Below, one piece after another: positions 544 through 1,991 of a DNA stretch of 30,609 bases. The notes under the pieces are model-generated. The model saw only the letters and a list, made by a program, of their open reading frames with translations, had not been told where the DNA came from and did no database searches. The position numbers and the translations under genes are program-made. Position 1 is the stretch's first letter. Every line of letters begins with the position of its first letter. The stretch comes from a virus (Duplodnaviria > Heunggongvirae > Uroviricota > Caudoviricetes): the IMG/VR virus record IMGVR_UViG_2529292886_000008; one strand, written 5' to 3'.

Positions 544-891
544 TTACTTATCACATAAATCAAATGCAGCCTTAGTGACATCCCCCAGACTCTTTTTTAA
601 CCCTGGGGCGGCATCATTATCTAGCCAAAATGGATTATTGTTATCTAACGGTAACGCACCAAATGTTTTACCTTTTATTCGAGCCAAACCTGTAAGTGCA
701 TATAACTTATTATCGTCAAAATTCATCACATAAGGATTACCATCAAGACACTGTAATTGAACCTCATCAGTATTAAATGGCCATACCCCATTGAAACTCT
801 CACGTTCAATAGTTTTAAAAGGCATTGCGACGGCGGAAAAAGAAAACATAGATAAAAAAGTAACTAATAGTTGAACCTTTTTTACTTTCAT
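544..891 (-). CDS. Secreted/periplasmic small protein, DUF2511 (YebY-like) fold suspected
   Basis: N-terminal signal peptide (MKVKKVQLLVTFLSMFSFSAVA), two Cys, motifs W.FN..EV.L.C..GN.Y and DNNNPF resembling YebY family from memory. Lies in the repressor-integrase operon. Confidence 0.6.
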   Translation of the reverse strand: MKVKKVQLLVTFLSMFSFSAVAMPFKTIERESFNGVWPFNTDEVQLQCLDGNPYVMNFDDNKLYALTGLARIKGKTFGALPLDNNNPFWLDNDAAPGLKKSLGDVTKAAFDLCDK

Positions 892-920
892 ATCATTACC
901 TCAATTTAGCTCAAGTAAGA

Positions 921-1571
921 TTACAAATTAAAAAACGCCCTAGAAATGACACCGCCTACCAAAACCCCTACGCAGATAAAGAATATTATTTCTTTTGGAT
1001 AAAGTCGGATTAATTCTGAAGCACGAAGTCGGACTTCTGGTAAGGTCGAACTCTCTATGTGGCTTGATGCCGATTGTTGCTCTAACCACGACAATGCAGA
1101 CTGTAACTGAGAACGAGTAAGATCGTTTAAACGTCCTGTACCGAAATTGATATGGCAATACCGCAGAAGTTTTTGTCGAAGTCCACAGTCTTCACTGTTA
1201 CGTAGTAATAAACTTACAAGAGCCTTACAGGCATCATGATCTTTACATCGCTCAAGCATTGCATGCAGAAAACTCTCCGCTGTTTTATATTGATTTACTG
1301 TCATATCATCAATACCAGCTACACCAATCTCCGCATGTACTTTTTGCCAAATAATAAACGCTTCAGTATTGCTAGCTTCTGCAATAGCAGCAACCAAGCT
1401 ATTTAGCTCCTTACGCTGAGCCTTAAGCAAAGGGCGATCGTCATCATCATTATTCGAAGGGATTGCGATATTGACGGTATGAGAACCATCATATCGCTCT
1501 ATCTGAATATTCTTTTCGTGAAAATCACGCCCAGCAACGCGATTGTTTGAACCGTTTGAGTTGACGGCCAT
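921..1571 (-). CDS. Hypothetical C-terminally membrane-anchored protein (216 aa), Cys/His-rich central region
   Basis: Long ORF tightly packed between repressor and ORF115. C-terminal hydrophobic segment IIFFICVGVLVGGVI. N-terminus carries NNRVAGRDF motif that is also at the repressor C-terminus. Confidence 0.6.
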   Translation of the reverse strand: MAVNSNGSNNRVAGRDFHEKNIQIERYDGSHTVNIAIPSNNDDDDRPLLKAQRKELNSLVAAIAEASNTEAFIIWQKVHAEIGVAGIDDMTVNQYKTAESFLHAMLERCKDHDACKALVSLLLRNSEDCGLRQKLLRYCHINFGTGRLNDLTRSQLQSALSWLEQQSASSHIESSTLPEVRLRASELIRLYPKEIIFFICVGVLVGGVISRAFFNL

Positions 1572-1586
1572 GTCACCTCCCTACTA

Positions 1587-1991
1587 TCACCTACCCTTAG
1601 TTTCGTTATAGTCACGACCAGCGATACGGTTATTACCACCAGAAATATTTAACTCACGTCCTGATGGCTGAGTTTCCTTTTCACTGATCGCACCTTTTAA
1701 AGCCCCAATCACCGCGTTTTTCACATCTAACGAAGCTGCTCGAAAGCGAGTAATCAATTCCTGCTCATCATCGTTATAAGTTTCAGGTGAGTGAATTCCC
1801 AACACAACATACTGAACATCAAGGCCAAAACGAGACAGCGCTGCCAAATACGCAGCATCAGGAAAGCTATCTCCTTTCTCATATCTAAGCTGAGTTAGCT
1901 TTTTGACTCCACCAATGTCGCTCATGGCAACTTGACTAAGTCCCAATCTTTCCCTTTCCTCACGCAACCGCCGACCAATATCATTTTTCAT
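1587..1991 (-). CDS. Phage immunity repressor, XRE-family helix-turn-helix (functional analogue of P2 C)
   Basis: N-terminal HTH_3-like segment (IGRRLREERERLGLSQVAMSDIGGV..LTQLRYEKG). Divergent from the early operon. Position immediately upstream of int as in P2. Confidence 0.8.
   Translation of the reverse strand: MKNDIGRRLREERERLGLSQVAMSDIGGVKKLTQLRYEKGDSFPDAAYLAALSRFGLDVQYVVLGIHSPETYNDDEQELITRFRAASLDVKNAVIGALKGAISEKETQPSGRELNISGGNNRIAGRDYNETKGR

What the first reader, a model, noticed from the sequence alone, without database searches (positions are those of the whole stretch)
544..1991. Cargo genes embedded in the repressor-integrase operon, with a duplicated NNR(I/V)AGRD(Y/F) motif at the repressor/ORF216 junction
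In P2 the repressor and int are adjacent. Here a tail-anchored membrane protein (216 aa) and a signal-peptide DUF2511/YebY-like protein (115 aa) lie between them and would be transcribed with the repressor in the lysogen, which is typical of superinfection-exclusion or lysogenic-conversion genes. The repressor C-terminus (GGNNRIAGRDYNE) and the ORF216 N-terminus (GSNNRVAGRDFHE) share a motif encoded by an imperfect 24-bp direct repeat (1524-1547 versus 1611-1634, about 75 percent identical, 87 bp apart). This could mark a split of an ancestral membrane-anchored XRE regulator, a shared interaction or degron motif, or a recombination scar.
Basis: seen in the sequence. Interest (0 to 1): 0.65.

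Follow-up and report, generated by a model that had tools for sequence, protein, structure and literature searches.

The report
Prophage repressor and membrane partner share motif
In this E. coli O157 P2-like prophage, the last ~17 residues of the lysogeny repressor and the first ~17 of the membrane-anchored protein encoded just downstream carry the same short motif. The pairing recurs and co-varies across many unrelated prophages, which suggests an undescribed link between a phage repressor and the cell membrane.

Summary
Repressor residues 114-130 (LNISGGNNRIAGRDYNE) match ORF216 residues 3-19 (VNSNGSNNRVAGRDFHE). The 24-bp DNA repeat is only 17/24 identical and unremarkable.

ORF216 is not cargo. 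It is a Flk_N-domain, C-terminally anchored membrane protein that always follows this repressor type. The slot between it and int is the variable one (DUF2511/YebY here).

In P2-like and Mu-like prophages of Enterobacterales, Gilliamella and Pseudomonas, the repressor tail and the head of the next gene carry the same motif variant:
- Cognate pairs score 47.5, non-cognate 31.9, shuffled 19.1 (permutation p about 5e-5).
- Synonymous codons show no gene conversion (73/186 same codon, 69.8 expected).
- The partner is always a membrane protein, but its architecture varies.
- Tail-less repressor homologues have no such partner.
- Both motifs lie in segments AlphaFold2 leaves disordered.

No fused repressor-membrane protein was found, so the split-gene and recombination-scar readings are rejected.

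Best explanation (inferred): a cognate tail-head contact ties the repressor to a membrane partner that controls its availability. The layout resembles amyloid-signalling motif pairs such as Bab/Agp, but membership is unproven. I found no prior description.

The parts
1587..1991 (-). Immunity repressor, 134 aa. It has an N-terminal XRE-type HTH (residues 1-65), two helices (74-103) and a disordered tail (104-134). It has no LexA-type peptidase domain.
   Evidence: ORF. Pfam HTH_31/HTH_3 matches fall below cut-off, but PHROG repressor families match. AF2 model. It is divergent from the Arc-like and Cox-like genes.
1602..1652 (-). Tail motif, repressor residues 114-130 (LNISGGNNRIAGRDYNE), followed by TKGR and the stop.
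   Evidence: BLASTP. The tail is conserved as ..(I/V)N(V/I)SG.GNR(I/V/A)AGRD(Y/F)NE.KK in most relatives. pLDDT is below 52.
1572..1589 (-). Junction: TGA TAG TAG (1581-1589), then the Shine-Dalgarno sequence GGAGGTGAC directly before the ORF216 ATG at 1571.
   Evidence: Read from the sequence. The triple stop rules out read-through fusion.
921..1571 (-). ORF216: a membrane partner of the repressor with a disordered head, a Flk_N helical domain and a C-terminal anchor.
   Evidence: phrog_5825. NCBIfam Flk partial match, E 8e-16. PF27202 Flk_N on homologues. AF2 model.
1515..1565 (-). Head motif, ORF216 residues 3-19 (VNSNGSNNRVAGRDFHE), inside the disordered head (residues 1-44, coordinates 1440-1571).
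   Evidence: S5, G7, N10, R11, G14, R15, D16 and E19 are invariant in 18 homologues at 58-84% identity. pLDDT is 49-61.
1053..1439 (-). Flk_N-type all-helical cytoplasmic domain (residues 45-173).
927..1004 (-). C-terminal hydrophobic helix (residues about 190-215), the tail anchor.
   Evidence: Hydropathy scan and AF2 helix 192-215. Homologues end directly after the hydrophobic stretch.
544..891 (-). ORF115: a secreted DUF2511/YebY-like protein that occupies the variable slot between the partner gene and int.
   Evidence: Pfam DUF2511, phrog_2950, PDB YebY 7n0j at E 0.0027. The slot content varies.
35..538 (-). Integrase remnant: the N-terminal 167 codons of the last gene of the operon.
   Evidence: Int_N, E 1e-29. 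The intact homologue is 333 aa in strain BB24-1.
1..79 (.). End of an IS629/IS1203 element that truncates int.
   Evidence: 95-100% matches to IS629/IS1203 transposase ends in Stx phages and E. coli genomes.
1992..2066 (.). Divergent control region between the repressor and the Arc-like gene. It holds a promoter-like site (2001-2029, + strand) and an imperfect inverted repeat (1980-1998 / 2014-2032).
   Evidence: These are consensus matches only.

Best explanation
The repressor and ORF216 form a conserved two-gene immunity module.

The repressor consists of a DNA-binding HTH domain, a helical C-terminal half and a disordered G/N-rich tail that usually ends in a basic tip. ORF216 is a cytoplasm-facing protein held in the inner membrane by a C-terminal anchor. 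Its disordered N-terminal head carries the same motif.

The most likely mechanism is direct, cognate recognition between tail and head, probably by strand pairing of the two short segments. This would tether or co-assemble part of the repressor pool with the membrane partner. The partner would thereby control how much free, active or stable repressor the lysogen has. It could give the prophage a membrane-linked input into maintenance, induction or exclusion.

Shown: the anatomy, the conservation, the co-variation, the terminal positions and the membrane nature of every partner.
Inferred: the physical contact and its effect on the switch.

ORF115 is a separate, exchangeable moron, a periplasmic YebY-like protein.
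For: 1. The pairing is universal for this repressor type.
- All genome loci found through ORF216 that reach upstream have a tailed repressor 8-35 nt upstream.
- Loci found through the repressor have a head-bearing gene next to it.

2. The motif co-varies.
- Type A is NR.AGRD(F/Y).E.
- Brenneria/Pectobacterium has Q.F.G...GQF(A/S)...I.N.
- Gilliamella has Q(I/V)(S/A)(A/G).NI(Y/I)N.
- Pseudomonas has QQF(N/H)..V..V..GD(V/I).N.
- Each variant appears in both tail and head of the same phage.
- Over 26 non-redundant pairs, cognate mean score is 47.5, non-cognate 31.9 and shuffled heads 19.1 (sd 4.3). None of 20,000 permutations reached the observed sum.
- Within type A, the variable residue of NRxAG is identical in 14/24 pairs against 6.9 expected.

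3. Pectobacterium repressors carry both motif types. IMG/VR loci with identical (L053) or near-identical (L078) tails each pair with the matching head. This argues against a host-determined signal.

4. Selection acts on the proteins, not the DNA: the same codon is used at 73 of 186 identical residues against 69.8 expected.

5. Position is strictly constrained. Of 176 strict-pattern matches in 118 IMG/VR loci, 147 were classified automatically as repressor C-terminus or next-gene N-terminus. The other 29 look like GTG/TTG-start heads or ORFs cut by a locus end.

6. Partners differ in architecture but are all membrane proteins that begin with the motif. Seen were Flk_N plus tail anchor, two-TM proteins, Cys-pair (zinc-ribbon-like) plus TM proteins, and Flk_N-like plus single-TM proteins with a 60-100-residue C-terminal extension. 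The motif is therefore independent of the Flk_N domain.

7. Two tail-less repressor homologues have no head-bearing partner.

8. Both motifs lie in segments AF2 leaves unstructured, as expected for segments that fold on binding.

9. The tail module is joined to several different HTH types.

10. Precedents: lambda rexA/rexB are accessory functions that bias the lambda lysogeny/lytic switch (10.1101/2021.04.19.439022; PMC11077077). Flk itself is a membrane-anchored cytoplasmic inhibitor (PMC13344023).
Against: - No interaction was measured or modelled. A complex prediction could not be run.
- A phage-encoded third factor that recognises both motifs would give the same co-variation.
- Some cognate pairs are only weakly similar: Gilliamella L013 scores 22 and L082 scores 16.
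- Within type A, cognate ranks are mediocre because all type A motifs resemble each other.
- The statistics ignore phylogenetic non-independence.
- No expression or phenotype data exist for ORF216.
- The only isolated phage carrying the module (520873) has a fragmented ORF216 homologue, so the partner is not essential for a viable phage.
Confidence: 0.5

Rival explanations
1. Tail and head do not touch each other. Both are recognised by the same third factor, such as a phage antirepressor, an adaptor, or a protease such as ClpXP, Lon or FtsH. The membrane protein would then act as a decoy, competitor or co-substrate that sets the threshold for repressor inactivation, much as lambda CIII protects CII from FtsH.
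For: The motifs are terminal and disordered, as degrons and short linear motifs are. Repressor tails usually end in a basic tip: 43% K/R in the last six residues. From my own knowledge, this recalls the basic C-terminal ClpX signals of MuA and the role of the Mu repressor tail in ClpXP sensitivity. The related prophage Sp13 is mitomycin-inducible although its repressor lacks a peptidase motif, so some factor must inactivate the repressor (PMC2669165).
Against: Two motif types coexist among Pectobacterium repressors, and matching IMG/VR loci show cognate pairs, which is hard to reconcile with a host protease. No third copy of the motif and no shared candidate factor was seen in the window. None is evident among the genes shared by the P2-like and Mu-like contexts either. 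The heads lack the basic tip.
Confidence: 0.25
2. ORF216 is mainly an effector: a superinfection-exclusion or abortive-infection membrane protein that the repressor holds in check or triggers through the shared motif. It would not be a regulator of the repressor.
For: It is co-oriented with the repressor, as are lambda rexAB (10.1101/2021.04.19.439022). It is a membrane protein. The layout matches amyloid-signalling pairs in which the membrane-targeting protein is the executioner (10.1101/2024.11.07.622273).
Against: There is no match to any PADLOC defence model. The Flk_N domain resembles small protein-binding helical bundles, not pore formers. Partner architectures with a sizeable segment beyond the single TM (presumed periplasmic) look more like sensors.
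Confidence: 0.15
3. The two motifs act independently and do the same job in each protein, for example self-association or binding to membrane or DNA, with no cross-talk.
For: The motif is conserved in each family on its own.
Against: This does not explain why the variant is matched within each phage. It also does not explain why tail-less repressors lack head-bearing partners.
Confidence: 0.07
4. The repeat is a remnant of a gene split, junction duplication or recombination and has no present function.
For: The two copies flank a gene junction.
Against: No fused form was seen in the listed hits of three searches. Synonymous sites are randomised. The motif residues are invariant across homologues of 58-84% identity. 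The pattern recurs with different motif variants and different partner proteins.
Confidence: 0.02

Closest known systems
Amyloid signalling motif pairs: fungal HET-S/NWD2, bacterial BASS, and E. coli prophage Bab/Agp (BASS11)
   Same: The same short motif of about 17-25 residues sits at the extreme C-terminus of one protein and the extreme N-terminus of the protein encoded by the adjacent gene. One partner is membrane-directed. The motif is G/N-rich (G 14.8%, N 13.5%), with almost no proline (0.7%) and little leucine (1.1%), and is disordered in the monomer.
   Different: Neither protein is an NLR/STAND receptor or a Bell/HeLo-type executioner. The motif is more charged (R, D, E). The G-phi-Q-phi-G core of RHIM/PP/BASS3 is absent. 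No Pfam amyloid-motif model matches; the only hit is NACHT_sigma at 13.7 bits against a cut-off of 27.6 for one Pseudomonas tail. Fibril formation is untested.
Lambda cI-rexA-rexB
   Same: Accessory functions, one of them a membrane protein by my recollection, that act on the lysogeny/lytic switch as well as on exclusion (abstracts of 10.1101/2021.04.19.439022 and PMC11077077). That the rex genes are co-transcribed with cI is textbook knowledge; I did not read it here.
   Different: There is no sequence or domain similarity, and no shared terminal motif is known between CI and the Rex proteins.
Flk (Fluke/RflH) of Salmonella and E. coli
   Same: A Flk_N helical domain and a C-terminal membrane anchor on a cytoplasm-facing protein that holds a partner system in one state (PMC13344023).
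   Different: Chromosomal Flk-like relatives are mostly about 250-416 aa, typically match in two stretches, start MQP(L/V/I).G, and lack the head motif. ORF216 scores 58 bits against an equivalog cut-off of 353 and lies in a prophage immunity operon.
Membrane sequestration of soluble regulators (Mlc by PtsG; sigma-E by RseA). From my own knowledge, not tested here.
   Same: A soluble DNA-binding regulator controlled by a membrane-anchored partner.
   Different: Those contacts use folded domains, not a shared terminal motif, and none involves a phage repressor.
YebY / DUF2511 (for ORF115)
   Same: Pfam match above cut-off, a signal peptide, and Trp37, Cys48 and Cys113 in place. YebY genes between a recombinase and a CI-type repressor have already been noted in Enterobacteriaceae (PMC8689200).
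   Different: It is not in a yobA-yebZ-yebY copper operon. Its function in the prophage is unknown.

Membership tests
Flk / Flk_N (PF27202; NCBIfam PRK10715) | Flk_N helical domain | tested here: met
   NCBIfam Flk matches residues 37-166 at E 8e-16. PF27202 is precomputed on nearly all listed homologues and is named Flk_N.
Flk / Flk_N (PF27202; NCBIfam PRK10715) | C-terminal membrane anchor with a cytoplasmic N-terminal part | tested here: met
   The hydrophobic helix 192-215 ends the protein. Topology was not tested experimentally.
Flk / Flk_N (PF27202; NCBIfam PRK10715) | Full-length equivalence to Flk (about 330 aa, two Flk_N stretches, score above the equivalog cut-off) | tested here: not met
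   58.2 bits against a cut-off of 353. ORF216 has a single domain and 216 aa, whereas chromosomal Flk-like relatives are mostly about 250-416 aa and typically match in two stretches. It shares a domain with Flk but is not a Flk orthologue.
Amyloid signalling motifs (BASS/FASS/RHIM) | The same short motif at the termini of products of adjacent genes | tested here: met
Amyloid signalling motifs (BASS/FASS/RHIM) | Association with an NLR/STAND-type receptor and a Bell/HeLo-type or other cell-death effector | tested here: not met
   The partners are an HTH repressor and Flk_N or other membrane proteins. PADLOC gave no hit for ORF216 or ORF115; the repressor gave only weak HTH-region hits.
Amyloid signalling motifs (BASS/FASS/RHIM) | Match to a described motif family (G-phi-Q-phi-G core, or the Pfam RHIM, PP, sigma or HET-s models) | tested here: not met
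   The only Pfam hit for eight heads and tails at E up to 10 was one sub-threshold NACHT_sigma match. No G-phi-Q-phi-G core was seen in any motif I inspected (by eye, no pattern search run).
Amyloid signalling motifs (BASS/FASS/RHIM) | Fibril formation and templating between the two motifs | not testable with these tools
   This needs peptides or GFP-fusion assays, as was done for Bab/Agp.
DUF2511 / YebY (ORF115) | Pfam PF10709 match above the gathering score, a signal peptide and the conserved cysteine pair | tested here: met
   28.4 bits against 21. YebY 7n0j at E 0.0027. Cys48 and Cys113 as in YebY.
XRE-type phage immunity repressor | HTH DNA-binding domain, placed divergent from the Cox/Apl-type early genes | tested here: met
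   PHROG repressor families match and AF2 gives a five-helix HTH. Arc-like and Cox-like genes lie on the other strand. The Pfam HTH matches are below their cut-offs.
LexA/CI-type self-cleaving repressor | C-terminal S24 peptidase domain | tested here: not met
   The protein is 134 aa with no peptidase match. The same is stated for the Sp13 repressor in PMC2669165.

The most novel reading that the evidence does not exclude
The tail and head motifs are a phage-borne amyloid-like (beta-arch) templating pair. A membrane-anchored or membrane-spanning partner would nucleate co-assembly with the repressor tail, or the reverse. The lysogeny switch, or an exclusion response, would then be flipped by a self-propagating conformational change rather than by proteolysis or a soluble antirepressor. 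This would extend amyloid signalling from NLR/cell-death pairs to transcriptional control of prophages in Enterobacterales and Pseudomonas.
Probability: 0.15. Interest if true: 0.9.

Novelty: new variant of a known kind. Interest (0 to 1): 0.72.

Why it matters
How non-SOS-cleavable repressors of P2-like and Mu-like prophages are controlled is poorly understood. The related O157 prophage Sp13 is mitomycin-inducible by an unknown route (PMC2669165).

A conserved, co-varying motif shared between the repressor and a membrane protein in the same operon gives a concrete hypothesis that cheap experiments can test: prophages couple the lysogeny switch to the membrane.

The module is common. This region is present in 506 of 5,426 complete E. 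coli genomes. Related modules occur in Klebsiella, Salmonella, Yersinia, Pectobacterium, Gilliamella and Pseudomonas prophages. It is almost absent from sequenced phage isolates, which may be why it has escaped notice.

If the contact is amyloid-like, it would be a new use of that signalling principle.

Tried and rejected
- **DNA repeat as the primary feature:** rejected. It is 71% identical, the repeat finder did not detect it, and it is no better than chance pairs. Codon identity is at the random level.
- **Read-through or fusion product:** rejected for the window because three stop codons in a row separate the genes.
- **Fused HTH-membrane ancestor:** searched for in three homology searches and not found among the listed hits.
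- **Known defence system:** PADLOC gave nothing for ORF216 or ORF115. Slot genes of other loci gave only weak PDC-S48/BRCT hits.
- **Pfam model for the motif:** none.
- **Isolated phages with the module:** only phage 520873, where the gene is fragmented, plus distant Ralstonia phage hits.
- **Literature:** searches for a repressor-membrane partner, Flk-like phage proteins, and amyloid plus prophage repressor found no description.
- **P4 epsilon-like derepression gene:** looked for among the early genes of the window by Pfam and not identified. It is annotated in a related strain.
- **A second pseudo-repeat in the head**, as in HET-s: a strict pattern gave 1 of 60. By eye, a subset shows ..(I/V)(G/A)RD(I/L/F)VNI.. 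I left this as a weak hint.
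Full report
**Where the window comes from**

The window is a P2-like (Peduoviridae) prophage of E. coli O157:H7.
- Bases 72-2300 are 97.8% identical to Escherichia phage 520873 (genus Xuanwuvirus) and 99-100% identical to prophages next to yecA in O157:H7 genomes.
- Bases 2300-25000 are 100% identical to strains PV15-279, F3113 and 493/89.
- Bases 1-79 are the end of an IS629/IS1203 element that cuts the integrase gene.
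- 506 of 5,426 complete E. coli genomes hold at least 80% of bases 1-2300.

**Checking the observation**

The gaps are 15, 29 and 5 nt, and no terminator-like site lies between them on that strand.

ORF115:
- matches DUF2511 above the Pfam cut-off and YebY in the PDB;
- has a signal peptide and the Trp37/Cys48/Cys113 positions of YebY.

ORF216:
- has no Pfam hit in the local library;
- matches PHROG 5825 and, over residues 37-166, the NCBIfam model of the flagellar regulator Flk (E 8e-16, far below the equivalog cut-off);
- has homologues that carry PF27202 Flk_N.

The protein motif is real. Repressor 114-130 aligns with ORF216 3-19 at 10/17 identical and 15/17 positive. These are the only two [AS]G[RN]D[FYILV] strings in the six-frame translation of the whole window.

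The DNA repeat is only 17/24 identical. The repeat finder did not report it, although it listed chance pairs of the same quality. The repressor stop is followed by two more in-frame stops and a strong Shine-Dalgarno sequence before the ORF216 ATG.

**ORF216 is a fixed partner, not cargo**

Homologues of about 209-216 aa occur across Enterobacterales. The head residues S5, G7, N10, R11, G14, R15, D16 and E19 are invariant at 58-84% overall identity.

Nine genome loci were found through ORF216, in Rosenbergiella, Mixta, Izhakiella, Enterobacter soli, Ca. Erwinia dacicola, Symbiopectobacterium, Hafnia and two Arsenophonus.
- In seven, the gene directly upstream is a repressor ending ..SG.GNR.AGRD(F/Y)NE.KK (NNFHE in Symbiopectobacterium).
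- The Erwinia contig is too short to show the upstream gene, and one Arsenophonus locus is degraded.
- The gene between the partner and int differs: DUF2511, 242-244-aa proteins with no family assignment that begin with a hydrophobic stretch, 81-96-aa acidic proteins, or a BRCT protein.

The variable moron slot is therefore the ORF115 position.

**The tail and head co-vary**

The repressor family has several tail types. Contexts of non-type-A repressors showed the same variant at the start of the next gene.

| Host / locus | Repressor tail | Head of next gene |
|---|---|---|
| Brenneria (L012) | QVFHGDINGQFAGNKIVNN | MRQEFNGTAQGQFSSRDIINI |
| Gilliamella (L013) | KQIINGSVNGQISAGNIYNN | MDQNFNDRVEQVAGENIINV |
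| P. aeruginosa (L014) | GQQFNGPVGTVTSGDVVNH | MANQQFHDRVHQVAAGDIKNF |

These three are Mu-like transposable prophages, so the module moves between phage types.

Eighty IMG/VR loci added more pairs.
- Over 26 non-redundant pairs, the cognate local alignment score averages 47.5, non-cognate 31.9 and shuffled heads 19.1 (sd 4.3).
- None of 20,000 permutations reached the observed sum.
- Within type A, the variable residue of NRxAG is the same in tail and head in 14 of 24 pairs, against 6.9 expected. This is not corrected for phylogeny.
- Pectobacterium repressors carry both type A and type B tails. IMG/VR loci whose repressor tails are identical (L053) or nearly identical (L078) to these pair each tail type with the matching head.

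**Selection acts on the protein**

At residues identical between tail and head, the same codon is used 73 times out of 186, against 69.8 expected from codon usage. There is no gene conversion and no recent duplication.

**Position and partner type**

A strict DNA pattern for G..NR.AGRD[FY].E found 176 matches in 118 IMG/VR loci.
- 147 were classified automatically: 70 within about 12 residues of the C-terminus of an HTH repressor, and 77 within about 14 residues of the start of the next gene.
- The remaining 29 look like heads with GTG/TTG starts, or ORFs cut by a locus end.

The tail-bearing proteins combine a conserved C-terminal half with several different HTH types.

The head-bearing partners differ in architecture:
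- Flk_N plus a tail anchor;
- two-TM proteins;
- Cys-pair (zinc-ribbon-like) plus TM proteins;
- Flk_N-like plus single-TM proteins with a 60-100-residue C-terminal extension (presumed periplasmic) carrying conserved cysteines.

All are membrane proteins. Two repressor homologues without a tail have no such partner.

No protein fusing the HTH to Flk_N was seen in the listed repressor relatives (120 of 213), the listed ORF216 relatives (120 of 194) or the 90 representative clusters. Chromosomal Flk lacks the head.

**Structure**

AlphaFold2 on ORF216:
- a confident helical domain for residues 45-173;
- a C-terminal helix at 192-215;
- a head (residues 1-44) without structure, pLDDT 49-61.

The repressor model has an HTH, two further helices, and a tail from residue 104 with pLDDT below 52.

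The shared segments average 16.5 residues. They are rich in G (14.8%) and N (13.5%), almost free of P and poor in L. The repressor usually ends in a basic tip.

**Mechanism**

The data fit best with cognate recognition between tail and head that links the repressor to a membrane partner (confidence about 0.5).
- A common third factor such as an antirepressor, adaptor or protease remains possible (about 0.25).
- The partner may instead be an exclusion effector (about 0.15).
- Independent function, or a functionless scar, is unlikely.

The related prophage Sp13 is induced by mitomycin C although its repressor has no peptidase motif (PMC2669165), so the route of repressor inactivation in this phage group is open.

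**Comparison with known systems**

- The layout is that of amyloid-signalling motif pairs, including Bab/Agp in E. coli prophages (10.1101/2024.11.07.622273; 10.1101/2020.01.06.895854). However, the proteins are of other kinds, the RHIM/BASS3 core is absent and no motif model matches. Membership is therefore not claimed.
- Functionally, the nearest precedent is lambda rexA/rexB, which bias the lambda lysogeny/lytic switch.
- Flk is a membrane-anchored cytoplasmic inhibitor (PMC13344023) that shares the domain, but it is not an orthologue.
- YebY genes between a recombinase and a CI-type repressor have been noted before (PMC8689200).

No paper in the searchable library describes the repressor-partner motif pair.

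**Verdict**

- The finding is real.
- ORF216 is a conserved repressor partner, not cargo. ORF115 is the cargo.
- The mechanism is inferred, not shown.

Noticed in passing
window 1-79 and 35-538: An IS629/IS1203 end truncates the integrase after 167 codons, so this copy of the prophage probably cannot excise using its own integrase.
   Followed up: partly
window 1980-1998 / 2014-2032: An imperfect 19-nt inverted repeat (74% complementary) spans the repressor start and the promoter-like site of the divergent Arc-like gene. It is a candidate operator.
   Followed up: no
window 8710-9669 (+): A ParM-type actin-like segregation protein (StbA_N, E 6e-83) is encoded inside this P2-like prophage, downstream of the replication gene.
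   Followed up: no
L001 (phage 520873) 1039-2039 and 2459-3065 of the record: In the only isolated phage that carries this module, int is annotated as two CDS. The ORF216 homologue is unannotated and matches in three pieces, so it appears degraded.
   Followed up: partly
repressor tails in many loci (e.g. L003, L012, L013, L069): After the motif, the repressor usually ends in a short basic tip (NENKK, NKKNK, RRRKTK, GAKRKE). K/R make up 43% of the last six residues. The heads lack this tip. It could be a degron or a membrane- or DNA-binding tip.
   Followed up: partly
L101, L147, L149, L175, L195 (IMG/VR): The helical C-terminal half plus tail of the repressor is joined to quite different N-terminal DNA-binding domains. 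In L101 and L147, BLAST aligns only residues 75-130 of the window repressor. This suggests the tail module is exchanged between immunity types.
   Followed up: partly
L098/L099 3536-3868 (Pseudomonas chengduensis P2-like prophage): A YebY/DUF2511 gene also sits in the repressor-to-int region of a Pseudomonas prophage whose repressor has no tail. DUF2511 is therefore a recurrent moron at this position, independent of the motif pair.
   Followed up: no
L009, L047, L056, L064, L076; P0245, P0247, P0250, P0274: Many type A heads contain a second, weaker copy of the motif (..(I/V)(G/A)RD(I/L/F)VNI..) about 15-20 residues after the first. This recalls the two pseudo-repeats of HET-s. A strict pattern counted only 1 of 60.
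   Followed up: partly
L014 repressor tail (P. aeruginosa): A sub-threshold Pfam match of the tail to NACHT_sigma, a fungal amyloid signalling motif (E 0.073, 13.7 bits against a cut-off of 27.6). It is probably chance but worth a targeted test.
   Followed up: no
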